A stretch of 64,000 nucleotides of DNA from an uncultured Planctomycetia bacterium (GTDB taxonomy: Bacteria > Omnitrophota > Gorgyraeia > VGKH01 > JBHPFN01): contig CAYOSQ010000001.1 in assembly GCA_964406665.1 (NCBI GenBank), positions 71,412 to 135,411 of the forward strand, written 5' to 3'. Shown piece by piece: positions 3,154-57,590 of the stretch. Position 1 is the first letter of the stretch. Every line of letters starts with the position of its first letter. The translations under genes and the position numbers were made by a program. The notes beneath the pieces were generated by a model. That model had not been told where the DNA came from. It made no database searches and saw only the letters and a program-made list of their open reading frames with translations.

Positions 3154-3231
3154 AATGTGTACAATCTTCCTTGGCCCCTCAGCTCAGTTCGATTTAGAGC
3201 CTCGGGATGGATTTTGCGAAGCAAAATCACA

Positions 3232-25726: not shown

Positions 25727-25754
25727 CGGTACCACCTCCATAAATTTTCAAAAA

Positions 25755-25782
25755 AAGCCCCTTCGAAAGAAGGGGCTTTGCA
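25755..25782 (-). terminator. intrinsic terminator (expression platform of riboswitch 2)
   Basis: Minus strand aaagcccctt-ctttcgaa-ggggcttt followed by TTTTTTGAAAATTT, immediately upstream of the CDS start. Confidence 0.55.
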
Positions 25783-25812
25783 AGTAGCAGTTAACGGAAT
25801 CCAAAATAAGGA

Positions 25813-25905
25813 CTACGGCAACCCGACAACCATAAAGACAGCCGATGTCTTTTTAGGCTCAAGGCTTTGTGCCCTACTCTTTCGAAGTAGTTTACTTTTA
25901 AGGAT
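25813..25905 (-). ncRNA. candidate c-di-GMP-I (GEMM) riboswitch aptamer, copy 2 (proximal to the CDS)
   Basis: Minus-strand RNA GUAAACUACUUCGAAAGAGUAGGGCACAAAGCCUUGAGCCUAAAAAGACAUCGGCUGUCUUUAUGGUUGUCGGGUUGCC matches the recalled GEMM-I consensus (GCAAACC, GAAA-capped P1, GGACGCAAAGCC, GGGUUACC-like 3' end). Confidence 0.55.
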
Positions 25906-25929
25906 TTGAAAGAACGTTGCTTCCAACAA

Positions 25930-25960
25930 AAAACCCTAGAATTTTTCTAGGGTTGCTACT
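25930..25960 (-). terminator. intrinsic terminator (expression platform of riboswitch 1)
   Basis: Minus strand ccctagaaaaattctaggg followed by TTTTTTGTTGG. Confidence 0.55.
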
Positions 25961-25961
25961 T

Positions 25962-26042
25962 TTGGCAACCCTGCCGCCTTCCCCCTTTCGGGAATAAGGC
26001 CGTTGGTTTTGCGTCCTTAGATTTCTCTAAGTTTGCCTTTTT
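25962..26042 (-). ncRNA. candidate c-di-GMP-I (GEMM) riboswitch aptamer, copy 1 (distal)
   Basis: Minus-strand RNA GCAAACUUAGAGAAAUCUAAGGACGCAAAACCAACGGCCUUAUUCCCGAAAGGGGGAAGGCGGCAGGGUUGCC; P1 CUUAGA-GAAA-UCUAAG with the GACGCAAAACC core. Confidence 0.5.
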
Positions 26043-26237
26043 CAAAAGCTAATATACTCTATAGAAACTATAGCACACAAAAAGCGCTTTTTCAAGTTGG
26101 CCAGGTAAATTTCTGAAAATTTTTAAACATCCTATTATGACATTTAAGCGTAACCGCTGAATTAGCTTTACTTTAGGTTTCTGCTATGATAGAATAGCAT
26201 TCACATTCAACAATATTTTTTAATCAAAAAACAAAAA

Positions 26238-42479: not shown

Positions 42480-43126
42480 GAGATAAATTAATAGTTGCTT
42501 TAGATGTTGATAGTTTTGCAAAAGCACGCAGCCTTGTTAATAAATTATATCCTAGGGTTAAGATATTTAAAGTAGGCAGCCAGTTGTTTACTGCTTGTGG
42601 CCCAAAAATAATAGATATTATTAGAAAAAAAAGAGCCAAAGTATTTTTGGATCTCAAATTTCACGATATTCCTAATACTGTCAAAAATGCAGTAATTGCG
42701 GCAAAGAAGCTTAATGTTTTCATGCTTACAGTTCATGCCTCAGGGGGAGAAGAGATGCTTTCTGCTGCAACTTCTGTTGTTAAGAGACCGCATATAGTTG
42801 GGGTAACTGTTTTAACAAGCCAAAAGAGTACAGTAACAGAAAGCAAAGTACTCAATCTGGCTAAGCTGGCAAAAAAATCTGGTGTTGATGGAATAGTTTG
42901 TTCTTATAAAGAAATTGCAGCTGTCCGGAAGAAGATTGGGAAAAGATTTATTATCGTGGTTCCAGGTATTCGCCCCAAAGGTTCCAGCAGAGGTGATCAG
43001 AAAAGAGTAGCAACCCCAAAAAAGGCAATAGAAGCCGGAGCAGATTTTATTGTTGTAGGTAGGCCTATAGTGAAAGCCAGGAATTCTTTAAAGGCTGCCG
43101 AAGAGATTCTACAGGAAATTAAATAG
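42476..43126 (+). CDS. pyrF: orotidine 5'-phosphate decarboxylase
   Basis: LIVALDVDS...KVG and DLKFHDIPNTV motifs. Confidence 0.85.
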   Translation: MRDKLIVALDVDSFAKARSLVNKLYPRVKIFKVGSQLFTACGPKIIDIIRKKRAKVFLDLKFHDIPNTVKNAVIAAKKLNVFMLTVHASGGEEMLSAATSVVKRPHIVGVTVLTSQKSTVTESKVLNLAKLAKKSGVDGIVCSYKEIAAVRKKIGKRFIIVVPGIRPKGSSRGDQKRVATPKKAIEAGADFIVVGRPIVKARNSLKAAEEILQEIK

Positions 43127-43132
43127 TTTATT

Positions 43133-43372
43133 ATGAGCGAACTCAGCGTATCGGTTATAATGCCGGACAAAAAAATATTTGAAGGTAAGGTGCAAGAAAT
43201 TGTTGTTCCCGGACAAGAGGGAGGGATGGAAATTTTCCCTAATCACGCTCCTTTATTAGCGGCTCTTAAGAAAGGCAAAATAGTAGTTAAGGGTGAATCT
43301 GAAGAAGAGTTTGAAATCGAATCAGGTTTTATTGAAGTGCATAATAACGTAGCAACAATACTTGCGCGCTAG
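43133..43372 (+). CDS. atpC: F1 ATP synthase epsilon subunit (beta-sandwich domain only, 79 aa), located at the 5' end of the operon
   Basis: VIMPDKKIFEGKVQEIVVPGQEGGMEIFPNHAPLLAALKKG resembles the epsilon N-domain. Confidence 0.7.
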   Translation: MSELSVSVIMPDKKIFEGKVQEIVVPGQEGGMEIFPNHAPLLAALKKGKIVVKGESEEEFEIESGFIEVHNNVATILAR

Positions 43373-43380
43373 ATTTTATT

Positions 43381-43590
43381 TTGAATAAAAACAATTGGGT
43401 ACATTATTTTGGCTTAGTGATGCAGCTCGGATTGGTTATCTCCGCCTGTATTTTAGTAGGTTTGTTAATCGGTGTTTTTTTAGATAAGATATTTAAGACG
43501 AATGGAATTTTTTTAGTTGTATTTCTTATTTTTGGAATTGTTGCTGGATTTAAAAGCGCATATCAAGATATTATGAGATCAAGTAAATGA
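43381..43590 (+). CDS. AtpZ-like small membrane protein
   Basis: 2-TM, 69 aa, in operon position upstream of atpI. Confidence 0.4.
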   Translation: MNKNNWVHYFGLVMQLGLVISACILVGLLIGVFLDKIFKTNGIFLVVFLIFGIVAGFKSAYQDIMRSSK

Positions 43591-43967
43591 ATGTCCCAAT
43601 AGAATATATAGTATACAAAATAAATATTTTAAAGAAGTCTTTGGTGCTTTTGGGCTTACTGGTAATATCCGGAACTTTTTTAAATAAAGGCTTTACGCTT
43701 GGGGTATTTATGGGTGGATGTATTTCTCTGGCACAGTTTTCCCTGCTTTCTAAGCACATACTGCAGATGAAAGAGTTGGCGGTTAAAAGCGCACAGAGAT
43801 ATATTATAATTAGATTTCTTCTTATGTATGCAATAATGGGCTTTGCACTTTTTATCGGCATTCAAAAGAACCTCGCAACATTCTTTGGAGTTGCCGCGGG
43901 GTTATTAATTGTTCAGGCAACTATTTATCTGGATAATTTTGTAGCAACTTTTAAAAAAAATAAATAA
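43587..43967 (+). CDS. atpI: ATP synthase protein I-like membrane protein
   Basis: 4-TM small protein preceding the Fo genes. Confidence 0.4.
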   Translation: MNVPIEYIVYKINILKKSLVLLGLLVISGTFLNKGFTLGVFMGGCISLAQFSLLSKHILQMKELAVKSAQRYIIIRFLLMYAIMGFALFIGIQKNLATFFGVAAGLLIVQATIYLDNFVATFKKNK

Positions 43968-43969
43968 TT

Positions 43970-44209
43970 ATGTCGTCAGAAATAATCAAAATTGTATCTT
44001 TGGCAGCAAGCGGAATATGCATGGGCTTAGGCGCCGTAGGGCCGAGTATGGGCATAGGGATTATTGGCTCTAAAGGCCTTCAAGGGATTAGTGAAAATCC
44101 TAAGCAAGAAGGAGTGCTTTTGAAAACCATGCTTATTGCTATGTCTATTGCCAGCACCACGGCTATTTATGCATTAATTATCTGTATGCTGCTAATTTTT
44201 GTAATTTAG
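43970..44209 (+). CDS. ATP synthase c-subunit paralog lacking the ion-binding carboxylate (Ser at the Glu position)
   Basis: Aligns with the downstream atpE (GAVGPSMGIGIIGSKG...), but helix 2 reads IAMSIASTTAIYALI versus [15 protein letters not shown]. Confidence 0.5.
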   Translation: MSSEIIKIVSLAASGICMGLGAVGPSMGIGIIGSKGLQGISENPKQEGVLLKTMLIAMSIASTTAIYALIICMLLIFVI

Positions 44210-44221
44210 AAAGTTTATTCT

Positions 44222-44953
44222 ATGCAAGATATCGGCGCTATAAGCACGCATGCTTTTACAATACCGCAGTTAGGTATTCAGCTTACTGTAAACCCAGTGA
44301 CTTTGATAACCAGCTGGGCTATTATGGGTTTTCTTGGCGTCGTATTATGCCCGGTTGCTTTTCGTCTGCGCAGGTTTCCTGGTAAGCTTCAAGCGGGGTG
44401 TGAATTATTCTACACAGCTTTTTCTGATATGGCTTACGAGGCTATGGGTAAGGATGCAAAAAAGTTTATTCCTTTAGTTGTAACTATATTTTTATTTGTA
44501 CTTGTTGCTAATTGGGCAAGTGTTATTCCGGGAGTTCACAGTCCTACAAAGGACCTAAACACTTGTTTAGGTTTAGGAATTTTAGTATTTATAGTTGCCC
44601 ATGTTTCCGCTATAATGAAAAAAGGATTAAAAGCATATATTACAGATTATTTTAAGCCCTATCCATTTTTTCTACCGATTAATTTAATTGGAGAAGTAGG
44701 AAAGGTTTTGTCGCACTCGTTTCGTTTATTCGGTAATCTTTTCGGCGGGGCGATAATCTTATCTTTAATTGGTCCGGTAACCCTAGAGATTTTCAAGGCG
44801 CTTAATTTTCCTGTGTTTACAAGCGCTCCGTTTTTGCTGATTTTATATTTTATTCAAACAGCATTTTTTGGAATTTTTGTAGGTTTGGTTCAGGCATTAG
44901 TGTTCAGCTTGCTGGCGTTGACATATATAGCGATTTTAAGAGAAGAACAATAG
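44222..44953 (+). CDS. atpB: ATP synthase Fo subunit a
   Basis: LSHSFRLFGNLFGG conserved Arg helix. Confidence 0.9.
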   Translation: MQDIGAISTHAFTIPQLGIQLTVNPVTLITSWAIMGFLGVVLCPVAFRLRRFPGKLQAGCELFYTAFSDMAYEAMGKDAKKFIPLVVTIFLFVLVANWASVIPGVHSPTKDLNTCLGLGILVFIVAHVSAIMKKGLKAYITDYFKPYPFFLPINLIGEVGKVLSHSFRLFGNLFGGAIILSLIGPVTLEIFKALNFPVFTSAPFLLILYFIQTAFFGIFVGLVQALVFSLLALTYIAILREEQ

Positions 44954-44956
44954 TAG

Positions 44957-45292
<336 letters not shown>

Positions 45293-45317
45293 AGTTTTAT
45301 ACAATTGAGAGGGCAAG

Positions 45318-45800
45318 ATGAATCTTAATTTTACATTAATAATTCAGATAATAAGCTTCGCTATATTTTTAGGACTTTTGACTAAATTTTTTTATAGGCC
45401 TTTGATGAATTATTTAGAAGATAGATCTGCCCAGATTAAGAAAATGGTAGAAGAAACCGAAGGAAACAGAAATATTGTTAACGAGGAAATCAAAAAGGTC
45501 CAGGAGGAGCTTAAAAAAACAAAAGAACAGGTCATCAAAATGAAAAAATCTGCTTCGCATGAAGCAGATAAGCATAGAAGAGCAGCTCTTGAGCAGGCTA
45601 AAAAAGAAGCTGCCGAGTTGCTTGATAGAGCAAAAAGCGAGATTAAAAAAGAATTAGCAGATGCTAAAGAGAAGCTCAAGGTAGAGGTCGCATCTCTTTC
45701 TATAGATGTTGCTATGAAGATTCTAGATAGAGAAGTAAAAGAAAAAGACCATAAAAAACTTATTAGTGAAGCGATAGAAGAATTAGGTAATGCAGGATAA
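45318..45800 (+). CDS. atpF: ATP synthase Fo subunit b
   Basis: Single N-terminal TM followed by a long charged coiled coil. Confidence 0.75.
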   Translation: MNLNFTLIIQIISFAIFLGLLTKFFYRPLMNYLEDRSAQIKKMVEETEGNRNIVNEEIKKVQEELKKTKEQVIKMKKSASHEADKHRRAALEQAKKEAAELLDRAKSEIKKELADAKEKLKVEVASLSIDVAMKILDREVKEKDHKKLISEAIEELGNAG

Positions 45801-46332
45801 CGTAGAAATATTACATGATAGATACGCCCGAGCTCTTTATGAGCATGCTAAAGATACCGGTGAGGTTGATAAGGTAATGCGTCAATTACAGGCGTTAAAT
45901 GATTTATGGTTATCAAATAGTAATTTCAGAGTCTGCTTAAGGCATCCCTTGATTGCCCGCTGGGAGAAAAAACAAGTTATGAAGCAGTTGGCAAAAATTA
46001 AAGATTGCTGTGAGACGCTGCTTAATTTTGTTAATATTCTGATCGAGAATAAAAGAGGCGGTTTAATTCACGGAGTATTTCTTAAATTCAAAGATCTTTA
46101 TGAACTTTATGAAAATAGAGCCAGTGTCGTTTTAGAAAGCGCGAGAGAGTTGTCCAACGAAGAAAAACAAAGAATGAAACAAGCCTTAAGTGAGGCGTTG
46201 AAAAAGAACGTTTCCCTAAAAACCCGCGTTAATAAAGATTTAATTTCAGGAGTAAGGATCCGTCATGGGGATACTGTATTTTCTAACAGTTTGATTTCAA
46301 AATTAAATAGATTAAGAGAGGGAATAGTATGA
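45790..46332 (+). CDS. atpH: ATP synthase delta (OSCP) subunit
   Basis: Position and size; [11 protein letters not shown] resembles the OSCP N-terminus. Confidence 0.75.
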
Positions 46333-47840
46333 AAATTAAGCCCAGCGAAATAACGTCCATTATTAAACAACAGATAGAAAATTATGAAAATAGGATAGAA
46401 ACAGCTGAAACTGGAACTGTGCTTAAAGTTGGAGACGGAATAGCAGAAATTTATGGCCTGGATCAGGCTATGTCTGGTGAGCTGTTGGCATTTCCTCAGA
46501 ATATATATGGCATGGTTTTAAATTTAGAAGAAGCTACAGTGGGAGCATGTATTTTTGGTGATGATTCACTTTTAAAGGAAGGCGATGAAGTTAGACTCAC
46601 CGGTAAAATCGTTGAGATAGGCGTAGGAGAAGAATTAATTGGTAGAGTGGTTAATGCCTTAGGCCAGCCCGTAGATGGTAAGGGAGACATTAAAGCTAGA
46701 CAAACTAGCCCTGTTGAGAAGATAGCTCCTAATGTTGTAAGTAGGCAGCCGGTTAAAGAACCTCTGTATACAGGAATAAGGGCAATTGATGCTATGATTC
46801 CTATAGGTAGGGGTCAGAGAGAATTAATCATCGGTGATAGGCAAACAGGTAAAACCGCTATCGCAATTGATACAATCTTAAATGCTAAAGGAAAAGACCT
46901 TATATGTATTTATGTGGCAATTGGACAGAAGAATTCAACAGTTGCCTCAATACAGGATACATTAACGAAACATGGTGCGATGGATTATACAGTTATTGTC
47001 AACGCAGCTGCTGGAGAAGTTGCCCCCATGAGATATTTAGCTCCATATGCCGGATGTACAATAGGAGAGTTTTTCCGTGATAACGGTAAGCACGCGCTGA
47101 TTGTTTATGATGACCTTACTAAACACGCCCAATCCTACAGAGAACTTTCTTTGTTGCTGAGAAGGCCTCCGGGACGCGAAGCGTATCCGGGAGATATTTT
47201 TTATTGTCATTCAAAACTACTAGAGAGAGCTTGTAAATTCAGCGAAGAAAACGGCGGAGGGTCGCTAACGGCGCTGCCGATCATAGAGACACAGGCAGGT
47301 GACGTAACAACGTATATACCAACCAATGTTATTTCTATTACAGACGGACAAATTTATCTGGAAACTAGTCTATTTTATCAAGGTGTGCGCCCGGCAATTA
47401 ATGTAGGCTTAAGCGTTTCTAGAGTTGGTGGTAATGCTCAAGAGAAATCTATGAAACAGGTAGCTGGAAGGCTTAGGTTGGATTTGGCACAGTTTCGAGA
47501 GATGGAATCATTTGCTCAATTTGGAACCGAGCTCGACAATGCTACTATTCAACAGCTGGAAAGAGGCAAGCGGCTAGTAGAGATCTTAAAACAGCCACAG
47601 TATAAACCTATGCCTCAAGAAGAGCAGGTAATAATTATTTTTGCCGGTGTGCGCGGTTTAATTGACGAGATCGACATTAATGATATGGAGCGCTTTCAGA
47701 AAGAGCTATTTGTGTTTTTAAAAGAAAAGCACGGTACCTTGCTTGAACAGCTAAGTCATGAGAAGGTTGTGTCCGATTCCCTGGAGCAGGAATTGACTTT
47801 AGTAATTGAGGAATTCAAAAAACAGTTTGTGAGATTATAA
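46329..47840 (+). CDS. atpA: ATP synthase F1 alpha subunit
   Basis: Walker [16 protein letters not shown]. Confidence 0.95.
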
Positions 47841-47842
47841 TT

Positions 47843-48700
47843 ATGGCAACCTTGCGCAGCATAAAAAATAGAATTGGTAGCGTTGAAAAAATTAGGAAAA
47901 TTGCTAAAGCTATGGAGATAGTAGCGCTTACTCGTCTGCGCAAGATTGAACAAAAGACTCAGGAGGCCAGGGATTATTTCGACAGGCTGCGTGATTTAAT
48001 GTTCGGCGTTGCTGATAATTTACTTTATGAGGCACATCCTTTCTTAAGAGAGCGAAGCTCAATAAAAAAATCAGCTGTAATTTTAGTTGCTTCAGATAAA
48101 GGTTTATGCGGAAATTTTAACGCCACTATTCTTAGTTCTTTTGATAGGTTTGTATCAGAAAACCCTGGTTTAAATATTGCCGGAATAGCCGTGGGAAAAA
48201 AATCAGAAACCATTTTTAAAAAACGCAAAATTGAAATAACAGTTGCCAGCGCCCCAGCTTCTCTAAAGGCGCATGATTATCTTGATACAGCTTCACAGCT
48301 TGCAGAAAAGATAGCTAAATTGTATTTAGACAGAGAAGTTGATCAACTGGTAATAATTTACAATAAATTTAAAATGCAATTTTTAGGCTCAGCTGAAATC
48401 CTTAAATTACTGCCTTTGAAGCTAGAGGGGTTTAAGATTAAAAGAATAAGAGATTATATTTATGAGCCCGATGCTTATGCAGTATTAGATCAGTTGTTAA
48501 AAGAATATCTTACTAATCAAATCGGGCAGGTGATTTTAGAATCTAACGCTGCTGAAGAAATGGCGCGTATGCTGGCGATGAAACAGGCGCGAGATAATGC
48601 CAACGAGGTAATAGATAAATTAAATTTAAGTTATCATAAAGCACGTCAGTCCAGCATTACAAGAGAGCTGGTAGAGATTACCACAACATTAAACGCATAG
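47843..48700 (+). CDS. atpG: ATP synthase F1 gamma subunit
   Basis: MATLRSIKNRIGSVEKIRKIAKAMEIVALTRL. Confidence 0.9.
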   Translation: MATLRSIKNRIGSVEKIRKIAKAMEIVALTRLRKIEQKTQEARDYFDRLRDLMFGVADNLLYEAHPFLRERSSIKKSAVILVASDKGLCGNFNATILSSFDRFVSENPGLNIAGIAVGKKSETIFKKRKIEITVASAPASLKAHDYLDTASQLAEKIAKLYLDREVDQLVIIYNKFKMQFLGSAEILKLLPLKLEGFKIKRIRDYIYEPDAYAVLDQLLKEYLTNQIGQVILESNAAEEMARMLAMKQARDNANEVIDKLNLSYHKARQSSITRELVEITTTLNA

Positions 48701-48712
48701 ATCATTTATTAA

Positions 48713-50140
<1,428 letters not shown>

Positions 50141-50149
50141 AGAAATCTT

Positions 50150-50238
50150 TTTGTTGACAAAAAAAGCCTCTGTTATTATTATAGTATGAATATTAAAGGG
50201 CGATTAGCTCAGTTGGTTAGAGCATCTGACTTACATTC
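50150..50238 (+). pseudogene. duplicated tRNA-Val(TAC) promoter plus 5' half (acceptor, D arm and anticodon stem-loop up to ...ttacattc), truncated; direct repeat of 54890..54978
   Basis: 50198..50238 is identical to the first 41 nt of the intact tRNA-Val at 54938; the upstream TTGACA-17-TATTAT promoter is about 80% identical to the one upstream of the intact gene. Confidence 0.55.
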
Positions 50239-50312
50239 CAATCTGAGTTTTTTTCATAAGCTGTTGTAATTGCTGTAAATACGGTCTTCGTAAATCACTT
50301 ACGGAGATTTTT

Positions 50313-50377
50313 TGTTTTAATAGAGTTTAATAGTTTTTAATGGTTTTTAATGCTGTATGGACACCTATATGGACACC
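50313..50377 (+). repeat. four tandem ~10-bp units (g/t)ttttaat(a/g)g, followed by two direct repeats tatggacacc (50356..50365 and 50368..50377), in the leader of the giant gene
   Basis: Visible in the sequence: gttttaatag agtttaatag tttttaatgg tttttaatgc, then tgTATGGACACCtaTATGGACACC. Confidence 0.45.
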
Positions 50378-50514
50378 AAGTAGGCAGGGGGTGGGCTTAA
50401 GGGGATATCCACATAGTTAGACCGAAGGTCGTCAAGAAACCGCTTTCTTGAAACACTACATTTACTCTTTTCTTTGTAGAATTAGATGTTATTCTTTTAG
50501 TAATAGACAGATAA

Positions 50515-50650
50515 AGGTAAACCATCAGAGATGGTGGGACGCAAAGCCACGGGTCTAGGAAGGGTCAGCCTAGATTAATATAAAGTCTTTTTGAAGAATA
50601 TCTTAGGCAATTATCCTTTATTTAGATAGCCGGGTTACCAAAAGGTGGTT
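50515..50650 (+). ncRNA. candidate c-di-GMP-I (GEMM) riboswitch aptamer, copy 3
   Basis: GGUAAACCAUCAGAGAUGGUGGGACGCAAAGCCACGGGUCUAGG...AGCCGGGUUACC; an 11-bp GU-containing stem gccggguuacc-aaaa-ggugguucggc followed by a U-rich tract, then the AAGGAGAG SD and ATG at 50683. Confidence 0.45.
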
Positions 50651-50682
50651 CGGCTTTCTATTTAAACATAAGGAGAGTTAAA

Positions 50683-53600
50683 ATGAAAAAGAAAAAAATC
50701 CTAGGAATAATTATTTGTTTAATAGTGATAGCAAGCCTCTGTTTTTTAGGTAATGCTGTGGCATTTCAAGGTCAAGATGCTAATACAAAATTAAATCAAC
50801 AGGCTAATAAGCTTTTGACGCCAGATGTGAAAAAGATCAATGAACTTGCGTCTGATGTCCGGGCAAATATCGAAAGACTCACTCAGAAAAGAAGTGACAT
50901 AGAAATTTCGAGTTGGAATTTGTCTACGGAGACACCACATAGAATAATTTCTAAAAACATTAGATTAGGCAAAAATATTCAAATCAACAAAGATAATATA
51001 GAGTCACTTACGAAAAATTTCATTTTGAGTCAACGAGATTTGCTGAAAGCGGATATAACTAATCTGAAGTTAATAAGGGCGCATAACATCAACAATAAAT
51101 GGTATGTAACATATCAGCAATATCTAAATAATATCCCAGTATATTATGGACTTGTTGAAATTAGAATGAGTGGAAAAGGAGAAATTTCGCTTTTTGGTTC
51201 AGATTACCATTCTGAAATAGAAATTTCCACCAAACCTTCGATTCTTGATGAAAAAGTTATACGCATAGCTCAAAAGGATATTGAGTTCAATGAAAGCACA
51301 GATTCAATATTTTCTTATCCAGGACTTATAGTTCTACCTGTTCAAGATGGCGGATCTATAAAATATCAGCTTGCCTACAGACTCGTACTTTCTACCAAAA
51401 ACCCTATTGGAAGCTGGGTTTTCTTTATTGATGCGCACAATGGAACGATACTTGCCAAGTATAACAATATCAAATTTTACCAAATTGATGGCAGTGTTAA
51501 TGGAGAAATATTACCGCAATATTATGATGATGAATTGGTGCAGAAAAATTTTATTCATGAAAGGGTTGAAGTTCAAGATATTGGATATGATTATACTGAT
51601 TTGGATGGATATTTCAGCATTACTGGAGATGCAGATGAAGGAGAGCAATTTACTTTAATTTCAGAATTAAAAGGCCCATATGTAGATGTGGATTATGAAG
51701 ATGGTGATGATGCAATTTATCTCGAAGAAATTGAAGCTCAGGGAACGTATGATTGGACATGGGATGCTTCTTTAGGGAGGCAGGACGAACTCAATGTTTA
51801 TTATCACGTCAATCGAATCCATGATTATGTAAAGAATAATCTTGGGTTTTCTGGCATGGATTATCAAATGAAGGCAATGGTTTCTGTTTTTGAATATTGG
51901 GATAATGCATTTTACAACCCAGATGATGAAAGCATTAACTTTGGAGCAGGTGGTGTAGCTTATAGAAATTTTGCTCTTTTTTCTGACGTTATTTATCATG
52001 AGTATGCCCATGGCGTTACTGATCATATTTATCCGGAAGGTTCGCTGCCTTATTTTGGACAATCAGGAGCAATGAACGAGGGTTTTTCAGATTACTTTGC
52101 GTGTACAATTAGTAATGAGCCTTATTTAGGAGAGGGGGGGCTCAGTAAATTTGGCTTGCCATACATGCGTACAGTTGATAATTCGGCTCGATACCCAGAT
52201 GATTATATCAACCGAGTACATCATGACAGCATGATTTTTTCTGGTTCTTTGTGGGATTTGAGAGAAATGTTAATAGATAAATACGGTGAGAATTATGGCA
52301 TAAAAAAAACCGATACTTTATCACATCTTGCTCGCTTTGGATATCCTGAAAATTTTGAGGATTATCTCCTTGAACTTTTATTTGTTGATGATGATAATGG
52401 CAATATTTATGACGGCACACCTAACTCTGTCGAAATATATACGGCTTTTTCTAGACATGGAATAGGTCCTGAGCCCACTGCGGTAGGTATTCAATATTTT
52501 GGTTCATTTATTGATGATGCAAATGGCAATAATAACGGATTGCTTGATCCGGGTGAAACTGTAGAGCTTGAAGTCACCCTTTTAAATAATCTTATAGAAA
52601 GTCTAGGCGGTTATGCAATTCATAATGTTACAGCTAGGCTAGTTAGCGTCGATCCATATATTACCGTTTCGAATAAGAAAATTTTGGTTGGAGATCTTAA
52701 ACCTCAGGAAACGGGTGTTGCAAGATTTAAGATTACGCTGGAAGATGCACCTGTTGATTGGAACGATTATCAAATTGACTTTTCTTTAGAAATAACCGGT
52801 TCCCCTGTTACTACAAATAATTTTTCTATAGATGCTACGGATTTTTGGCAAAGCAATTTTCGGATTCCAGTTGCATTTTTGGATTTGACTCATAGAAAAT
52901 CCTGGTATTATGATGAAGAGCTAGGAAATAATGATCGTTTTGCAAATCCGGGGGAAACAGGAGAGATATTAATTGCTGTTAAAAACACCGGTCTTCTTGT
53001 TGCCACGGGAGTAGTTGTAAAAGTTGCTTCAAACAGTCCATATGTATTTGTTCTAGAGGATGAGGCTTATATTGAGGATATCGATCCAGGAGATAGTGGA
53101 TATGCTTCTGTGATGGTTCAATTTTCTGATACAGTTCCCGTAGGCATAGAAGTTGACTTTAAAGCTGAAATTAGCGCTGACGAAGGTTTTTTAATGTATT
53201 TTCCAATAGAGATATTTGTTCCCAGGATAATATTTGATGATCATGCTTCATCAAGCGGAGTTGTTGGGGATTCTACTTATTATCTTCAGCAAGCTGTGTT
53301 TGGTGATTATGATAATGATAATGATCTGGATATCTATATGGCTATGCATGAAGATTGGACAGTTCCAGCCCTGGATTTGCTCTATCGAAACAACGCAGAT
53401 GGCACGTATACAGAGTTAGGAGAAGAAGCAGGAGTGAATTCATTGTTGTCTTCAACGCGCGCTACGTTTTTTGACTATAATAATGATAACTGGCTAGATT
53501 TATTTATTTTGCACGATGAGGATAATACTCTGTTTCGCAATAATGCAGATGGAACTTTTACTGATGTAACTATGGAAGCAGACATAGATACTAACGGACA

Positions 53601-54732
53601 GGGTAACACAAACAATACCGCAGGTATATTAATCGGAGATTTTGATAACGATGGTTGGCTTGATGTATTTACCGGCGGAGCATTCTATCGAAATAATGCT
53701 GACGGTAGCTTTACTGATATCATTGAGCACTCAGGTATCATAGGGGGATCCGGCTATAAATATGTATCAATAGCCCTTGATTTCGATAACGATAATGACT
53801 TAGATATTCTCTGGTCAAGCCGTGACGAAGATGTTCTCTATCGCAATGACGGCAACTTTACGTTTTTTGATATTTCTATAGAAGCAGGTATATTAGAGCG
53901 TGAACAATTAATTATTAGCGATATAGCAATAGGTGACTATAACAATGATGGTTGGCTTGATGTATATATTGTTTCACGCGGAGGATATTCATGGTATAAC
54001 CCAACCCCAAACATGCTTTATCGTAATAATGGCGATAGTACATTTTCGGAGGTAGGGGCATATGCCGGAGTAAATGATAGTTTAGCATTAGGAGGCGACG
54101 CAATTTTTGCCGACTATAATAACGACGGATACTTAGATATTTTTGTAGCAAATGAAGGTAGGCAAAGCGAAGATTGTTATGGTGGTTGCTCTAGGTCGTT
54201 TCAGGCAGACTCTCTTTTTATAAATAACGGTAATGATACATTTTCTGATATCGTTTCTGGAACTATGGCAACTGCACCAGAAGTTGGAAGCACGCTTAAT
54301 TGGAGGATTAGCTCCGCAGATAGCAATGATGATGGGTTCTTGGATATATACTATGCCCATACTGATTTCGATAGTCCAGATATTAATCAACTACTTATTA
54401 ATGATTATTTTACTGATACACAAAATAATTGGCTTAAGGTTAAGCTTGAAGGAACAACAAGTAACAAAGATGGTATCGGAGCTAAAGTAAAAGTTGTTTG
54501 TGATGGTCAAGAACAATTAAGAGAAGTATCTAATCATCAGGGGCAGAGTTTAGAAGTAGAGTTTGGACTAAAAGGATATTCATCGATAGATTTGTTAGAA
54601 ATAACCTGGCCAAGTGGACAAATGCAAAGCTTGCAAGATATAGCTGCGAATCAGACTATTGCTGTTATTGAAGAGGATAGGCCACCAAGGCCACATCCGG
54701 GCAAGAAGTCCATTTTACCCTTTTTGTTTTAG
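50683..54732 (+). CDS. giant (1349 aa) secreted multidomain protein: M36 (fungalysin)-like zinc metalloprotease, FG-GAP/VCBS-type beta-propeller repeats, and a C-terminal ASPIC/UnbV domain
   Basis: Signal peptide; HEYAHGV (HExxH) with downstream NEGFSDYF Glu ligand; repeated DYDNDNDLDIY / DFDNDGWLDVF / DYNNDGYLDIF motifs; C-terminal NKDGIGAKVKV...LEITWPSGQMQSL. Confidence 0.7.
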   Translation: MKKKKILGIIICLIVIASLCFLGNAVAFQGQDANTKLNQQANKLLTPDVKKINELASDVRANIERLTQKRSDIEISSWNLSTETPHRIISKNIRLGKNIQINKDNIESLTKNFILSQRDLLKADITNLKLIRAHNINNKWYVTYQQYLNNIPVYYGLVEIRMSGKGEISLFGSDYHSEIEISTKPSILDEKVIRIAQKDIEFNESTDSIFSYPGLIVLPVQDGGSIKYQLAYRLVLSTKNPIGSWVFFIDAHNGTILAKYNNIKFYQIDGSVNGEILPQYYDDELVQKNFIHERVEVQDIGYDYTDLDGYFSITGDADEGEQFTLISELKGPYVDVDYEDGDDAIYLEEIEAQGTYDWTWDASLGRQDELNVYYHVNRIHDYVKNNLGFSGMDYQMKAMVSVFEYWDNAFYNPDDESINFGAGGVAYRNFALFSDVIYHEYAHGVTDHIYPEGSLPYFGQSGAMNEGFSDYFACTISNEPYLGEGGLSKFGLPYMRTVDNSARYPDDYINRVHHDSMIFSGSLWDLREMLIDKYGENYGIKKTDTLSHLARFGYPENFEDYLLELLFVDDDNGNIYDGTPNSVEIYTAFSRHGIGPEPTAVGIQYFGSFIDDANGNNNGLLDPGETVELEVTLLNNLIESLGGYAIHNVTARLVSVDPYITVSNKKILVGDLKPQETGVARFKITLEDAPVDWNDYQIDFSLEITGSPVTTNNFSIDATDFWQSNFRIPVAFLDLTHRKSWYYDEELGNNDRFANPGETGEILIAVKNTGLLVATGVVVKVASNSPYVFVLEDEAYIEDIDPGDSGYASVMVQFSDTVPVGIEVDFKAEISADEGFLMYFPIEIFVPRIIFDDHASSSGVVGDSTYYLQQAVFGDYDNDNDLDIYMAMHEDWTVPALDLLYRNNADGTYTELGEEAGVNSLLSSTRATFFDYNNDNWLDLFILHDEDNTLFRNNADGTFTDVTMEADIDTNGQGNTNNTAGILIGDFDNDGWLDVFTGGAFYRNNADGSFTDIIEHSGIIGGSGYKYVSIALDFDNDNDLDILWSSRDEDVLYRNDGNFTFFDISIEAGILEREQLIISDIAIGDYNNDGWLDVYIVSRGGYSWYNPTPNMLYRNNGDSTFSEVGAYAGVNDSLALGGDAIFADYNNDGYLDIFVANEGRQSEDCYGGCSRSFQADSLFINNGNDTFSDIVSGTMATAPEVGSTLNWRISSADSNDDGFLDIYYAHTDFDSPDINQLLINDYFTDTQNNWLKVKLEGTTSNKDGIGAKVKVVCDGQEQLREVSNHQGQSLEVEFGLKGYSSIDLLEITWPSGQMQSLQDIAANQTIAVIEEDRPPRPHPGKKSILPFLF

Positions 54733-54775
54733 CTTGTCGATCTGAAGACCGCGAGTTTAAATCTTATAGTGCCTG
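54731..54775 (+). pseudogene. tRNA-Asp 3'-half fragment (anticodon-loop to T-arm, acceptor degenerate) abutting the stop codon of the giant gene
   Basis: ttgtcgatctgaagaccgcgagtttaaatcttatagtgcc versus the intact attgtcgatctgaagatcgcgagttcaaatctcgtcgggccc at 55153..55194. Confidence 0.4.
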
Positions 54776-54937
54776 TCACCTCCACATTTTTTGAAATCTG
54801 ACTATGCCGCTTATTTCCACCGCTATTGTTTTACCAACAAGCGCTTCCGCAGAATAACTTAACTCGTTATCATTGTCTCCGAATAATTTTCTATTGACAG
54901 TTAAGGATTATATCATTATCATAGTATAAATATTAAA

Positions 54938-55011
54938 GGGCGATTAGCTCAGTTGGTTAGAGCATCTGACTTACATTCAGAGGGTCGAGGGTTCGAGTCC
55001 TTCATCGCCCA
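54938..55011 (+). tRNA. tRNA-Val (anticodon TAC)
   Basis: gggcgattagctcagttggttagagcatctgactTACattcagagggtcgagggttcgagtccttcatcgccca. Confidence 0.85.
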
Positions 55012-55120
55012 TTAAGATTTTGCGAAGCAAAACTAGTCCTGAGCTTTTGTTGGATTAATTGTTTGAAGCGAGGGACCAGGATAAAAAATCTGTTCTTTGT
55101 AACATAGGGTAATTTTCTAA

Positions 55121-55195
55121 GGGCCCGTGGTGTAGCTTGGTTAACATGTCAGATTGTCGATCTGAAGATCGCGAGTTCAAATCTCGTCGGGCCCG
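55121..55195 (+). tRNA. tRNA-Asp (anticodon GTC)
   Basis: gggcccgtggtgtagcttggttaacatgtcagattGTCgatctga...gagttcaaatctcgtcgggcccg. Confidence 0.85.
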
Positions 55196-55260
55196 TTAAG
55201 TTTGCCGAAGGAAAATAACACCGAGCTTATTAAAAATAAGCGAGGAGACATTAAACCAAA

Positions 55261-55295
55261 CCCCCGTATTGACTTACGGGGGTTTTTTATTTTTT
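55261..55295 (+). terminator. rho-independent terminator after the tRNA-Val/Asp pair
   Basis: cccccgta-ttgactta-cggggg hairpin followed by TTTTTTATTTTTT. Confidence 0.55.
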
Positions 55296-55408
55296 CTCTT
55301 TCGATGTGAAACTTTTTTTATAATTTTGTTGTCTAAGGCAATGAAAGGAGGTGGGTAGAAAACTTGAAGGGTTACAAAAAGACTTATAAAAAGAGGAGGA
55401 TAAGAATT

Positions 55409-55798
55409 ATGAAAAAAATAATTACAGTTTTTATGATTGGTTTAATATCTTTGGCTGGTGTGGTAATCTTTTTGACCCCTGGCTATGCGAGCGATTGGGA
55501 TACAGCAGGAAAGATATTTGCAGGTATTGAAGGAATGAGAGTGCTCTCAGGTGGCAACATAGATATTATTGGCAGCATGACAGGGATAAACAGACATAAA
55601 GGACATTCACATACAAGTTATGCTAAATGCCATCCGCACTGTTCGCATAGGGTGTGGGTTCCTAAAATGGTTTGGAAGAAAAAATACGTTCCGCAACATA
55701 AAGAATACAGCGAAAAATATGGTGAAATCATAGTAGAAAGCCATTACATCAAATATCAGGTTGAACGGGGAGGAAAATGGATTTACGCATGTAAATGA
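55409..55798 (+). CDS. hypothetical secreted His/Cys-rich small protein (start trimmed to MKKIITVF after AAGAGGAGGA)
   Basis: Signal peptide/TM; HKGHSHTSYAKCHPHCSH cluster; no family recognised. Confidence 0.35.
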   Translation: MKKIITVFMIGLISLAGVVIFLTPGYASDWDTAGKIFAGIEGMRVLSGGNIDIIGSMTGINRHKGHSHTSYAKCHPHCSHRVWVPKMVWKKKYVPQHKEYSEKYGEIIVESHYIKYQVERGGKWIYACK

Positions 55799-56288: not shown

Positions 56289-57590
56289 ATGGAGATTAAA
56301 TTATATTTAATAGTTCTGTTTTTCGGAACACTGTTAGGTTTAAATCTTGCCCGTTTATTAATTGTGAAAATTTCAAGGACAGAAGTAGTTGAAGATGAGA
56401 AAAAGGCTCGAAGCAGAGAATCTATGATACGAAAGGTTCTAAGTAGAGTTCCGGAAGTAGGTGCAGATAAACAAAAAGTTAAAACTGATTCATCTGTTTT
56501 GGAGAAGAAAATTCTCTATGAAGATGAGCTTAACCGGATTCTTCAGATTGAGCAGGAGATTTCCGCTAATGCTCAATTAGCAGATGTTTCTCGTGTCATA
56601 GTCGAGAATGCCATGAAGACATTTGGTGTTGATAGATGTGTTTTACTGTTGCTTGATCCGGAAACCAAAATACTTAAAATACAATATTCTATTGGTTTAA
56701 TCGATGAAGATATTAATAGTACGAGTCTTAAGTTAGGAGAAGGATTATCTGGTTATGTTGCCGAGAGAAATCAGATGATGGCTATAGAAGATGTTAAAAA
56801 AGAATTCTGGTCTAAGGGAGAAAAAGAGTATTATTACACCGGCCCCCTAGTCAGCATTCCCCTAACGACACAAAACATGGTTTTCGGAGTATTGAATATC
56901 GATCGTAAGAAAACAGGAGAGGTTTTTAACGACGACGATATCCGTTTTATCAAGAGTTTAGCTGTGCAGAGTGCGATTGCCATACAAAATGCCAGATTGT
57001 ACGAAGAGGTTCAAGAGGGCTATCTCAGGACAATAATGGCTTTGGCAGAAGCCTTGGATGCAAAAGACCCGTATACTCATAAACACTCAGAGAACGTTAC
57101 CAGGTTTGCCGTGGCAATTGCAGAGGAGCAGGGATTATCTTTATCAGAGATTGAAAAAATTAGAAGAAGTGGTCTTATGCACGATATTGGAAAAATCGGT
57201 ATTAAAGACGATATCCTTACAAAGCCTGGTAAATTGACCGATGAAGAATTTGAGCAGATAAAAACTCATCCTGAGAAAGGTGAAAGCATCCTGCGGTCTT
57301 TGCCTTTTCTGGAGGAAATCTCAAAAATAGTACGCCATCATCACGAACGTTATAATGGTGCAGGATATCCGGATAAGTTAAAAGGTTATCAAATAGAATC
57401 AGGTGCTAAGATATTGGCGGTTGCGGATGCGTTTGATGCCATGGTATCTGATAGACCATATCGAAAAGCATTGAGTTTAGAAATAGCACGCGGAGAATTA
57501 GAGCGCAACAGCGGAACACAGTTTGATCCGGCGGCAGTTGAGGCATTTCTTAAGGTCCTTCAGAAAAATCCAAACATTATTAAAAGTTAG
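56289..57590 (+). CDS. membrane-anchored GAF + HD-GYP domain c-di-GMP phosphodiesterase
   Basis: N-terminal TM; GAF-like middle; HDIGKIGI and HHERYNGAGYP motifs. Confidence 0.75.
   Translation: MEIKLYLIVLFFGTLLGLNLARLLIVKISRTEVVEDEKKARSRESMIRKVLSRVPEVGADKQKVKTDSSVLEKKILYEDELNRILQIEQEISANAQLADVSRVIVENAMKTFGVDRCVLLLLDPETKILKIQYSIGLIDEDINSTSLKLGEGLSGYVAERNQMMAIEDVKKEFWSKGEKEYYYTGPLVSIPLTTQNMVFGVLNIDRKKTGEVFNDDDIRFIKSLAVQSAIAIQNARLYEEVQEGYLRTIMALAEALDAKDPYTHKHSENVTRFAVAIAEEQGLSLSEIEKIRRSGLMHDIGKIGIKDDILTKPGKLTDEEFEQIKTHPEKGESILRSLPFLEEISKIVRHHHERYNGAGYPDKLKGYQIESGAKILAVADAFDAMVSDRPYRKALSLEIARGELERNSGTQFDPAAVEAFLKVLQKNPNIIKS

What the first reader, a model, noticed from the sequence alone, without database searches (positions are those of the whole stretch)
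50150..54978. 4.6-kb single-gene island bounded by a duplicated tRNA-Val promoter plus 5' half on the left and a tRNA-Asp 3'-half remnant on the right, next to the intact tRNA-Val/tRNA-Asp pair
50198..50238 is base-for-base identical to the first 41 nt of tRNA-Val(TAC) at 54938, and its TTGACA-17-TATTAT promoter is also duplicated. The copy breaks in the anticodon loop. Directly after the giant gene's stop codon (54731..54775) lies a degenerate copy of the tRNA-Asp anticodon-loop-to-T-arm segment. The simplest reading is that a second Val-Asp tRNA pair was split by the inserted DNA, with breakpoints in both anticodon loops. The captured tRNA promoter now apparently drives the roughly 440-nt riboswitch-containing leader and the giant gene. 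No integrase or transposase is present, so the mechanism is unclear.
Basis: seen in the sequence. Interest (0 to 1): 0.7.

Follow-up and report, generated by a model that had tools for sequence, protein, structure and literature searches.

The report
Integrase-less gene island scarring tRNA-Val/Asp locus
In an uncultivated Omnitrophota bacterium, one large c-di-GMP-controlled secreted-protease gene sits in a conserved tRNA-Val/tRNA-Asp locus between two dead tRNA fragments, and an intact tRNA pair next door does the work; this is an unusual but recognisable kind of tRNA-locus insertion scar, not a new type of system.

Summary
50198-50238 matches the first 41 nt of tRNA-Val(TAC) exactly. Its TTGACA-17-TATNAT promoter is duplicated but diverged. 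54731-54776 is a decayed (38/46) copy of the tRNA-Asp anticodon-loop-to-3'-end segment. Between them lie a terminator, a c-di-GMP-I riboswitch and a 1349-aa secreted M4/M36-peptidase + FG-GAP/VCBS + UnbV gene.

All eight Omnitrophota relatives examined (atpD 71-84% identical) carry atpD-promoter-tRNA-Val...tRNA-Asp. None has the giant gene, so the island is lineage-specific. Their Val-Asp locus is a rearrangement hot spot. It holds swapped small genes (GIY-YIG, four-helix-bundle), an orphan tRNA-Asp 5' half broken in the anticodon loop, a tRNA-Val nested in another, and short duplications of tRNA 3' ends.

The two fragments have decayed unequally (0/41 vs 8/46 mismatches, p=0.006). An intrinsic terminator separates the copied tRNA promoter from the riboswitch. 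Composition and codon usage are host-like. I found no integrase among the ORFs of 150 aa or more that I screened across the 64-kb window.

Best reading: a decayed, recombinase-less tDNA island (CIME-like) built in several steps. How it arose remains unresolved.

The parts
50148..50197 (+). Promoter copy 1 (-35 TTGACA 50154-50159, 17-nt spacer, -10 TATTAT 50177-50182), 8 nt after the atpD stop. Positional and sequence orthologue of the tRNA promoter in relatives.
50198..50238 (+). Orphan tRNA-Val(TAC) 5' fragment: acceptor 5' strand, D-arm, anticodon 5' strand, anticodon loop and 2 more nt. 41/41 identical to 54938-54978.
   Evidence: not called as a tRNA
50283..50319 (+). Intrinsic-terminator-like hairpin T1 (11 bp, 3 G-C) plus TTTTTTGTTTT. 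It is the first terminator after atpD and after promoter copy 1. It resembles terminator T2 of the intact tRNA unit (24/30 with one gap); I read the stem differences as two both-sided (C-G to T-A) and one one-sided change.
   Evidence: stem-pair reading by eye from the sequences
50320..50505 (+). Leader segment of unknown origin. Best sigma-70-like site is only ACTACA-16-TAGAAT (50455-50482, 8/12). No similarity to relatives or to the rest of the window.
50506..50642 (+). c-di-GMP-I riboswitch aptamer with a roughly 50-nt insertion in one loop.
50628..50665 (+). Expression-platform terminator (12 bp, then a T-rich tail). Its 5' arm is the 3' conserved strand of the aptamer, so ligand binding should prevent termination (inferred ON switch).
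50683..54732 (+). 1349-aa ORF: hydrophobic N-terminal stretch that looks like a signal peptide (by eye, no predictor run), M4/M36-type metallopeptidase region, FG-GAP/VCBS repeats, UnbV_ASPIC domain. C-terminal module complete relative to homologue P0223.
54731..54776 (+). Decayed tRNA-Asp(GTC) remnant: anticodon loop, anticodon 3' strand, variable loop, T-arm, acceptor 3' strand. 38/46 to 55151-55196. Overlaps the ORF stop codon.
54777..54887 (+). Unique 111-nt spacer (Y) with no detectable similarity to any other part of the locus or to relatives. Its end, GAATAA-7 nt-TTGACA, weakly recalls the atpD stop region.
54888..54937 (+). Promoter copy 2 (TTGACA 54894-54899, 17-nt spacer, TATCAT 54917-54922) of the intact tRNA unit.
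54938..55011 (+). Intact tRNA-Val(TAC).
55012..55120 (+). 109-nt Val-Asp spacer. My reading of the printed sequences suggests its Val-proximal hairpin and TCCTGAGC motif recur in relatives' spacers; the blastn extended only about 20 nt past the tRNA in one relative (L168). It holds no gene, unlike most relatives.
   Evidence: (visual comparison)
55121..55195 (+). Intact tRNA-Asp(GTC).
55258..55295 (+). Strong intrinsic terminator T2 of the intact tRNA unit (11 bp, 6 G-C, T-run).

Best explanation
WHAT IT IS. This is a lineage-specific, recombinase-less island in the conserved atpD / tRNA-Val / tRNA-Asp locus of an Omnitrophota bacterium. It is best described as a decayed tDNA island (CIME-like) built in several steps at a recombination hot spot. 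Formally, about 4.74 kb (terminator T1, leader, riboswitch, giant gene, tRNA-Asp 3' remnant, 111-nt spacer, second promoter plus Val 5' half) lies between two copies of a promoter+tRNA-Val-5'-half repeat.

Shown:
- The atpD-proximal promoter+Val half is the native, now dead, copy.
- The distal compact promoter-Val-Asp-terminator unit is the working one.
- The giant gene is absent from every relative examined.
- The break points fall at or next to the anticodon loops. Islander (PMC4383910) lists the anticodon loop as one of the crossover sites of tyrosine integrases in tRNA genes.
- The Asp remnant is older, or at least more decayed, than the Val half.

Inferred history:
- The cargo entered by recombination in tRNA anticodon-loop DNA, leaving a displaced Asp 3' fragment at its far end. 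That polarity relative to the cargo is the common one.
- A later event (deletion, or a second recombination within the Val gene) removed the inner tRNA halves and any recombinase gene. It left the 5'-fragment signature at Val, a minority polarity.
- The tRNA part of the Val repeat stayed identical either because that last event is recent or through gene conversion.

HOW IT WORKS NOW (inferred). The distal unit supplies tRNA-Val and tRNA-Asp. Promoter copy 1 and the atp operon read into the Val half and are mostly stopped by T1. That insulates the giant gene, which is switched on by c-di-GMP through an anti-terminating riboswitch. Its transcription starts either at a weak promoter near 50455-50482 or from read-through of T1.
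For: Repeats and their sharp boundaries.

The Val...Asp pair follows atpD in all eight Omnitrophota relatives examined (L004, L084, L085, L087, L168, L169, L170, L174), and none has the giant gene. One further atpD hit (L173, 80% identical) has a different neighbourhood with no tRNAs and is not counted.

Promoter copy 1 shares TTTTTGTTGACA and TATTAT exactly with relatives.

Hot-spot behaviour in relatives:
- L168 has an orphan tRNA-Asp 5' half (38/38), broken after TTGT of the anticodon loop, then a 380-nt insert and an intact Asp. This is the same polarity as the window's Val.
- L084 and L087 have a tRNA-Val split in the T-loop by an insert that carries a complete second tRNA-Val.
- L170 and L085 have 21-nt and 13-nt duplications of tRNA 3' ends flanking GC-rich mini-inserts.

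Unequal decay of the two fragments.

No integrase or transposase domain in the island, nor among the ORFs of 150 aa or more screened in the window.

Precedent: Islander lists 159 of 3919 tDNA islands with a displaced 5' fragment and 2083 with an anticodon-centred site (PMC4383910). CIMEs are defined as elements that kept attL/attR but lost integration and transfer genes (PMC5704250).

Terminator T1 and the riboswitch platform.
Against: - No integrase, integrase remnant or recognisable att arm sites were found, so the site-specific step is inferred only from break positions and polarity.
- The island has host-like GC content and codon usage. The giant protein has no close homologue (39% identity or less). 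No donor or intact parent element is known.
- The Asp remnant lies upstream of the intact Asp gene. That is not the canonical arrangement relative to that gene and forces an extra step (a pre-existing second unit, or a later acquisition of one).
- The T1/T2 resemblance is only suggestive: best of 22 other terminator-like hairpins, and 0 of 500 shuffles reached its score (p<0.002), but the match is T-rich. It fits some sub-histories better than others.
- The nearest relatives are distant (84% atpD identity), so there is no true empty site at strain level.
Confidence: 0.45

Rival explanations
1. Nuclease-initiated break repair without any integrase. A small GIY-YIG nuclease gene sits in the Val-Asp spacer of most relatives. 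That nuclease, or another structure-specific nuclease, would cut the tRNA genes at hairpin loops (anticodon loop, T-loop). Repair by one-sided homologous recombination plus illegitimate joining would then copy in foreign DNA together with a fresh promoter and 5' half. That leaves an orphan 5' half at the cut.
For: - GIY-YIG ORFs lie between Val and Asp in L085, L168 (one pseudogene plus one new copy), L169 and L174.
- In L168 the 380-nt insert between the orphan Asp 5' half and the intact Asp consists essentially of a second, only 31% identical, GIY-YIG gene and no integrase.
- The window's Val scar has the same polarity and break position.
- The Val identity block is sharply bounded, as expected of a recombination tract.
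- Phage T4/T6 SegB, a GIY-YIG enzyme encoded inside a tRNA cluster, cleaves within tRNA genes and drives recombination-dependent segmental amplification (PMC13096335; PMC2330249, abstract).
- Homology-facilitated illegitimate recombination is an established route for one-end-anchored insertion (PMC3240628, abstract).
Against: - The window has no GIY-YIG gene or remnant (tblastn).
- The relatives' proteins are 85-125 aa, catalytic domain only, without the DNA-binding domain of SegB-type homing enzymes. NCBIfam gives no homing-endonuclease assignment.
- The GIY-YIG gene is so widely conserved in the slot that it may simply be a resident gene.
- The Val and Asp break sites share no sequence motif.
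- No cleavage data exist.
Confidence: 0.25
2. A tandem second Val-Asp unit arose by duplication. In one event the inner part of the atpD-proximal unit (Val 3' half, spacer, Asp 5' half) was then replaced by the cargo. Gene conversion from the intact Val has since kept the orphan Val half identical.
For: - Both ends of the cargo coincide exactly with the inner ends of the two fragments, and the ORF stop overlaps the Asp remnant.
- Relatives show that the Val-Asp interval is a slot where genes are exchanged: GIY-YIG, four-helix-bundle protein, or nothing.
- Both promoters are about equally similar to the relatives' promoter.
Against: - Unequal decay, 0/41 vs 8/46 mismatches, p=0.006, needs an added assumption: gene conversion acting on one 41-nt fragment but not on the other 46-nt one.
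- It offers no mechanism for two simultaneous breaks at anticodon loops.
- It does not explain why a T2-like terminator sits at the left end of the cargo.
Confidence: 0.2
3. Two complete tRNA units (each promoter-Val-Asp-terminator) once flanked a resident giant gene. The proximal unit then lost 235 nt in a recent deletion running from the Val anticodon loop to 18 nt past Asp. That left promoter-Val half-44 nt-T1. The Asp remnant is an unrelated, older scar.
For: - T1 resembles T2 and keeps its hairpin despite sequence changes in the stem.
- The offset of the promoters (4740 nt) and of the terminators (4975 nt) differs by 235 nt. That equals Val 3' half + spacer + Asp + 18 nt (coordinates).
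- It explains the perfect identity of the Val half, which would have been a functional gene until recently, alongside diverged promoter spacers.
- Host-like composition of the giant gene.
Against: - The 44 nt before T1 show no significant similarity to the 44 nt before T2.
- The Asp remnant sitting exactly at the ORF stop is left unexplained.
- No relative has two units.
Confidence: 0.1

Closest known systems
tDNA genomic islands as catalogued by Islander (tyrosine-integrase islands in tRNA/tmRNA genes), specifically the minority class with a displaced 5' fragment and an anticodon-centred site
   Same: An intact tRNA gene and a displaced fragment of it in direct orientation bracket a block of accessory DNA. 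The break is at the anticodon loop. The incoming side carries what is needed to regenerate the gene, here a promoter plus the 5' half. The block is absent from relatives (PMC4383910).
   Different: - I found no integrase among the ORFs screened in the island or the 64-kb window.
- There is a single cargo gene.
- Composition is host-like.
- A fragment of a second, different tRNA (Asp) marks the other end of the cargo.
- The promoter part of the repeat is strongly diverged.
CIMEs (cis-mobilizable elements): decayed ICE/IME that kept attL/attR but lost integration and transfer genes
   Same: Flanking att-like repeats in a tRNA gene, no recombination or transfer genes, and a hot spot where elements accrete (PMC5704250).
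   Different: No related ICE or IME is known in Omnitrophota. Derivation from such an element and mobilisation in cis are untested. The repeat lies at the 5' end of the target gene, not the 3' end.
SegB-type GIY-YIG homing endonuclease action in phage tRNA clusters (T4/T6)
   Same: A GIY-YIG gene embedded between tRNA genes (in relatives), breaks inside tRNA genes, and recombination-dependent segmental duplication of tRNA-containing segments (PMC13096335).
   Different: The setting is a bacterial chromosome, not a phage. The relatives' proteins lack a DNA-binding domain. The window itself has no GIY-YIG gene. No cleavage has been demonstrated.
c-di-GMP-I riboswitch control of secreted or surface proteases and adhesins (for example in Clostridioides difficile; from my own knowledge, not checked here)
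   Same: A c-di-GMP-I aptamer with a terminator platform lies upstream of a large secreted metalloprotease/repeat protein.
   Different: The phylum is different. The aptamer carries a large loop insertion. The upstream context is a dead tRNA gene plus a terminator.

Membership tests
Islander-type tDNA genomic island | Intact tDNA and a displaced fragment of the same tDNA, in direct orientation, bracketing the island | tested here: met
   Val 5' fragment 50198-50238 and intact Val 54938-55011, 41/41 identical. This is the 5'-fragment polarity, 159 of 3919 islands in PMC4383910.
Islander-type tDNA genomic island | Crossover at an anticodon-loop or T-loop/acceptor site of the tRNA gene | tested here: met
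   Val identity ends 2 nt past the anticodon loop. Asp remnant identity starts at or just before the anticodon loop. The Asp start is less certain.
Islander-type tDNA genomic island | Tyrosine integrase gene inside the island | tested here: not met
   The only independent ORF of 60 aa or more is the 1349-aa peptidase/FG-GAP protein. No recombinase domain appears among the ORFs of 150 aa or more screened in the window.
Islander-type tDNA genomic island | Island absent from related genomes (empty site) | tested here: inconclusive
   All eight Omnitrophota relatives examined lack the giant gene and have one Val...Asp unit. The nearest has only 84% identical atpD. The three closest contigs are the same population, 99.98-100% identical.
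Islander-type tDNA genomic island | Excision as a circle with an attP junction | not testable with these tools
   Needs reads or PCR from the source samples.
CIME (cis-mobilizable element) | Retains attL/attR-like repeats but has no integration or transfer genes | tested here: met
   definition from PMC5704250.
CIME (cis-mobilizable element) | Derived from an ICE/IME and mobilisable by accretion with one | not testable with these tools
   No related element found: the viral-contig scan for the Val half gave 0 hits, and the giant protein has no close homologue.
Homing-endonuclease-driven tRNA-locus duplication (SegB-like) | GIY-YIG endonuclease gene in or next to the duplicated tRNA segment | tested here: not met
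   tblastn of three relatives' GIY-YIG proteins against the window gave nothing below E=0.5. The gene is present in relatives L085, L168, L169 and L174.
Homing-endonuclease-driven tRNA-locus duplication (SegB-like) | Endonuclease cleaves within the tRNA genes | not testable with these tools
   Biochemical assay required.
c-di-GMP-I riboswitch (RF01051) | Score above the Rfam gathering threshold, with an expression platform | tested here: met
   62.8 bits against 35. A terminator overlaps the aptamer's 3' strand.
Functional tRNA gene (for the two fragments) | Complete cloverleaf detected by ARAGORN or the Rfam tRNA model | tested here: not met
   Neither 50198-50238 nor 54731-54776 is called, even at E up to 1 for the Val region. 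The Asp remnant folds no better than shuffles.
Group I intron in a tRNA anticodon loop | Intron RNA model match between the two tRNA halves | tested here: not met
   No intron family hit in the window at gathering threshold, in 50100-50700 at E up to 1, or in the relatives' loci at gathering threshold. The sequence following the insert is a complete tRNA, not a 3' half.

The most novel reading that the evidence does not exclude
In this Omnitrophota clade the atpD-linked tRNA-Val/tRNA-Asp locus may be a dedicated cargo slot serviced by an integrase-independent mechanism. A small GIY-YIG (Slx1/YhbQ-like) nuclease resident in the slot, or another structure-specific nuclease, would cut tRNA genes at their hairpin loops. 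Repair would then install new cargo together with a replacement promoter and 5' half, or even a whole tRNA. This would explain three scars at once: the window's Val half, the Asp 5' half in L168, and the tRNA-within-a-tRNA in L084/L087. That would be a new route of tRNA-targeted gene acquisition in cellular genomes.
Probability: 0.15. Interest if true: 0.7.

Novelty: new variant of a known kind. Interest (0 to 1): 0.4.

Why it matters
tRNA-gene fragments are the standard markers used to delimit genomic islands, and island-finding programs such as Islander require an integrase. This locus shows how a single large adaptive gene can sit in a tRNA locus with textbook fragment scars yet no recombinase. 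The gene is a c-di-GMP-switched secreted protease/repeat protein in a phylum thought to live attached to or preying on other cells.

The scar has the rarer polarity, in which the promoter and 5' half are duplicated, and fragments of two different tRNAs bound the cargo. Such islands would be missed by integrase-dependent island finders. Relatives add several independent partial tRNA duplications at the same site. That makes this a tractable natural series for asking whether hairpin-loop breaks in tRNA genes can arise without integrases.

For annotation, the practical points are these:
- 50198-50238 and 54731-54776 are pseudogene fragments.
- T1 probably serves as the atp operon terminator.
- The giant gene should not be assumed to be driven by the tRNA promoter.

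Tried and rejected
1. The genome-contig scan with atpD returned only relatives at 72% identity or less, from many phyla. Only L004 (Omnitrophica) was useful.
2. The metagenome-contig scan with the downstream HD-GYP protein found nothing closer than 38% full-length identity (at most 53% over the HD domain).
3. The viral-contig scan for the exact 41-nt Val half gave 0 hits.
4. I looked for a decayed Val 3' half after the break, an Asp 5' half before the remnant, and any similarity of the 111-nt spacer or the leader to other parts of the locus or to relatives. None was significant. A 10/12 D-arm-like match (TGTTTTAGCTTG), which would imply a 17-nt deletion between TTG repeats, is not significant: p=0.1 by shuffling, 0.02 by genomic control.
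5. Foreign composition is rejected. The island's GC is 0.34-0.39 against 0.32-0.45 in the flanks. Its RSCU correlation is 0.85 (other genes 0.59-0.92) and GC3 is 0.27, at the low end of the range.
6. Tracing the cargo failed. The next-best homologue is 39% identical over 45% of the protein. Homologues in L171 and L172 lie in unrelated contexts with no riboswitch and no tRNAs.
7. No GIY-YIG remnant is present in the window.
8. No extra RNA family was found in 50100-50700.
9. An acceptor-like 8-bp pairing between the 5' end of the Val half and 50267-50274 appears in the MFE fold. My rough hand estimate puts its chance probability near 0.05, so I did not pursue it.
10. Assembly artefact is rejected: the structure is identical in three assemblies.

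Full report
1. ANATOMY. The window is core chromosome near the replication origin: yidC, parAB, dnaA, dnaN, gyrBA at 7-19 kb. An F-type ATP synthase operon ends with atpD at 50140.
- Eight nucleotides after the atpD stop is a near-consensus promoter (TTGACA-17-TATTAT, 50154-50182).
- Next come the first 41 nt of tRNA-Val(TAC) (50198-50238).
- 44 nt further on is a terminator-like hairpin with a T-run (T1, 50283-50319).
- A 186-nt stretch of unknown origin follows, then a c-di-GMP-I riboswitch (50506-50642, 62.8 bits). Its 3' strand doubles as the 5' arm of a second terminator (50628-50655).
- Then come a Shine-Dalgarno sequence and a 1349-aa ORF (50683-54732). Its N-terminus is a hydrophobic stretch that looks like a signal peptide (my reading; no predictor was run). 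The ORF has an M4/M36 metallopeptidase region, FG-GAP/VCBS repeats and an UnbV_ASPIC domain.
- A decayed copy of tRNA-Asp from the anticodon loop to the 3' end (54731-54776) overlaps the stop codon.
- A unique 111-nt spacer follows, then an intact unit: promoter (TTGACA-17-TATCAT), tRNA-Val(TAC), a 109-nt spacer, tRNA-Asp(GTC) and a strong terminator T2.

- The Val repeat is 91 nt at 86% overall but very uneven. The tRNA part is 41/41, the 15 nt before it 14/15, the promoter spacer 8/17, and the sequence after the break 9/42, which is background.
- The Asp remnant is 38/46 with background flanks.
- BLAST E-values within the window are 1e-18 and 5e-8.
- The locus is 99.98-100% identical in three other metagenome contigs, so it is not an assembly artefact.

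3. WHOSE GENOME, AND WHAT DO RELATIVES LOOK LIKE? The best named atpD matches are Candidatus Omnitrophota/Omnitrophica. Nothing lies between 100% and 84% atpD identity. I fetched eight Omnitrophota relatives (84-71% identical). All have atpD followed by the same kind of promoter, one tRNA-Val(TAC) and one tRNA-Asp(GTC). None has the giant gene. A ninth atpD hit (L173, 80% identical) has a different neighbourhood with no tRNAs and was set aside. L085 and L168 also share the downstream genes (tRNA_bind, GAF-HD-GYP, YjbQ, RNase T-WYL) with the window, so they are truly syntenic. The island is therefore lineage-specific, and the atpD-proximal promoter+Val half sits at the ancestral position. It shares TTTTTGTTGACA and TATTAT exactly with the relatives.

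4. THE LOCUS IS A HOT SPOT.
- In relatives the interval between Val and Asp carries different small genes. These are a GIY-YIG protein (L085, L169, L174; a pseudogene in L168), a four-helix-bundle '23S rRNA IVS' protein (L084/L087), or nothing (L170, L004).
- L168 has an orphan tRNA-Asp 5' half, 38 nt identical, ending after TTGT of the anticodon loop. It is followed by a 380-nt insert with a second, 31% identical, GIY-YIG gene and then the intact tRNA-Asp. This is the same signature and polarity as the window's Val scar.
- L084 and, independently assembled, L087 have a tRNA-Val interrupted in the T-loop by about 135 nt that contain a complete second tRNA-Val.
- L170 and L085 have 21-nt and 13-nt duplications of tRNA 3' ends around GC-rich mini-inserts. 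L085 also has a GC-rich insert in the promoter flanked by duplicated GTTGACA.

5. WHY A SINGLE EVENT DOES NOT FIT.
- If one duplicated pair had been split once, both fragments should have decayed equally. They have not: 0/41 vs 8/46 mismatches, Fisher p=0.006.
- The promoter spacers of the two copies are as different from each other (8/17) as each is from L168 (8/17). The 62 nt from the -10 box to the break, however, are 60/62 identical.
- This pattern indicates a recombination or conversion tract, or a very recent last event, laid over older divergence.
- T1 resembles T2. It matches 24/30 with one gap, none of 500 shuffles scored as high, and T2 is the best match among 22 other terminator-like hairpins in the window. 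From reading the two stems I count two both-sided and one one-sided change that preserve pairing. This is suggestive only.
- The promoter offset (4740 nt) and the terminator offset (4975 nt) differ by 235 nt. That equals Val 3' half + spacer + Asp + 18 nt, which is compatible with a deletion inside a once-complete proximal unit. The intervening 44 nt show no significant similarity, however.
- I could not find remnants of the missing Val 3' half or Asp 5' half.

6. ORIGIN OF THE CARGO.
- GC content (0.34-0.39) and codon usage (RSCU correlation 0.85; GC3 0.27) fall within the range of core genes.
- The protein has no close homologue. The best is 39% identical over 45% of the protein. Homologues with the same architecture lie in unrelated contexts without riboswitches or tRNAs.
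- c-di-GMP riboswitches are native to this genome. A tandem pair at 25814-26047 (minus strand) controls an 89-aa secreted protein from a canonical TTGAAA-17-TATAGT promoter.
- The cargo is therefore either old in this lineage or came from a close relative.

7. EXPRESSION.
- The two tRNA promoters are the only 11/12 sigma-70-like sites in the 5.6 kb scanned.
- T1 is the first terminator after atpD, so it probably ends both the atp operon and the roughly 120-nt Val-half transcript.
- Between T1 and the aptamer the best promoter-like site is ACTACA-16-TAGAAT (8/12).
- The giant gene is thus fed either by a weak promoter of its own or by read-through of T1. T1 is weaker than T2 (3 vs 6 G-C pairs).
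- In the ligand-free fold the platform terminator forms using the aptamer's conserved GCCGGGUUACC strand. I infer an ON switch. Neither point was tested.

8. MECHANISM, AND COMPARISON WITH WHAT IS KNOWN.
- Displaced tRNA fragments with breaks at the anticodon loop or T-loop are the hallmark of tyrosine-integrase islands. Islander counts 3760 islands with a 3' fragment, 159 with a 5' fragment, and 2083 with anticodon-centred sites (PMC4383910).
- The window's Val scar matches the 5'-fragment, anticodon-centred class. The Asp remnant at the far end of the cargo has the common 3' polarity relative to the cargo.
- The defining integrase is missing, so I do not file it as such an island. CIMEs are elements that kept their att sites but lost integration genes (PMC5704250); they are the closest named category, but derivation from an ICE/IME is untested.
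- The main rival is nuclease-initiated break repair. It rests on the GIY-YIG genes in the relatives' slot, on the integrase-free L168 event, and on the SegB precedent in T-even phage tRNA clusters (PMC13096335). The window itself has no GIY-YIG gene.
These histories overlap in part.

9. VERDICT. This is a real and well-delimited tRNA-locus insertion scar with unusual polarity and no recombinase, lying in a clade-wide hot spot. It is a new variant of a known kind. How it arose cannot be settled without closer relatives or read-level data. The captured-promoter idea is weakened but not excluded.

Noticed in passing
L168:9978-10437: An orphan tRNA-Asp 5' half (38 nt, identical) is broken after TTGT of the anticodon loop. 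A 380-nt insert follows, encoding an 85-aa GIY-YIG protein that overlaps the start of the intact tRNA-Asp. Upstream lies an older GIY-YIG pseudogene with a premature stop.
   Followed up: partly
L084:11871-12090 (same in L087:2262-2480): A tRNA-Val gene is split in its T-loop by about 135 nt that contain a complete second tRNA-Val. The inner gene's acceptor stem differs by two compensatory pairs. This is a tRNA gene nested inside a tRNA gene, seen in two independent assemblies.
   Followed up: partly
L085:4856-5101 and 5654-5791; L170:9572-9751; L084:11723-11870: Small GC-rich, hairpin-rich inserts (about 110-250 nt) sit in otherwise AT-rich DNA. They are flanked by duplications of the promoter -35 (GTTGACA) or of tRNA 3' ends (13 and 21 nt). 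They may be miniature elements or remnants of deleted islands.
   Followed up: no
window 43000-50140 (and L084, L168, L169, L170): The atp operon has an unusual order. A short (79-aa) epsilon-like gene (ATP-synt_DE_N) comes at the start of the operon instead of after atpD, and there are two c-subunit genes (79 and 105 aa). The order is conserved in four of the relatives. L174 has the two c-subunit genes but no called epsilon gene.
   Followed up: no
window 25472-26110 (minus strand): Tandem c-di-GMP-I riboswitches (78 and 63 bits), each with its own terminator, lie behind a TTGAAA-17-TATAGT promoter. They sit upstream of an 89-aa ORF that looks secreted (hydrophobic N-terminus, by eye).
   Followed up: partly
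window 56289-57590: A GAF + HD-GYP protein (probable c-di-GMP phosphodiesterase) lies 1.1 kb downstream of the island. It is syntenic in L085 and L168, so it is not part of the island, but it places c-di-GMP turnover next to a c-di-GMP-controlled gene.
   Followed up: no
window 55364-55798: A 144-aa ORF with no Pfam or NCBIfam match, whose N-terminus looks like a membrane or signal segment (by eye), lies directly after the tRNA terminator. It is absent from syntenic relatives L085 and L168, so it is a second lineage-specific gene at this locus.
   Followed up: no
window 29017-30342: A 441-aa ORF with Hint/intein-like (PT-HINT) domain matches.
   Followed up: no
window 55016-55032 and 3210-3226: The same 17-nt palindromic hairpin (GATTTTGCGAAGCAAAA) follows both tRNA-Val(TAC) and, on the other strand, tRNA-Val(GAC). 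Similar hairpins follow tRNA-Val in L084 and L168. It may be a processing or termination signal.
   Followed up: no
window 50199-50206 with 50267-50274: In the predicted fold of the Val-half transcript, the 5' acceptor strand pairs with UAAUUGCU downstream (8 bp, 2 G-U), giving a closed three-way structure before T1. The fold z-score is -2.2, and my rough hand estimate puts the chance probability of the pairing near 0.05.
   Followed up: partly
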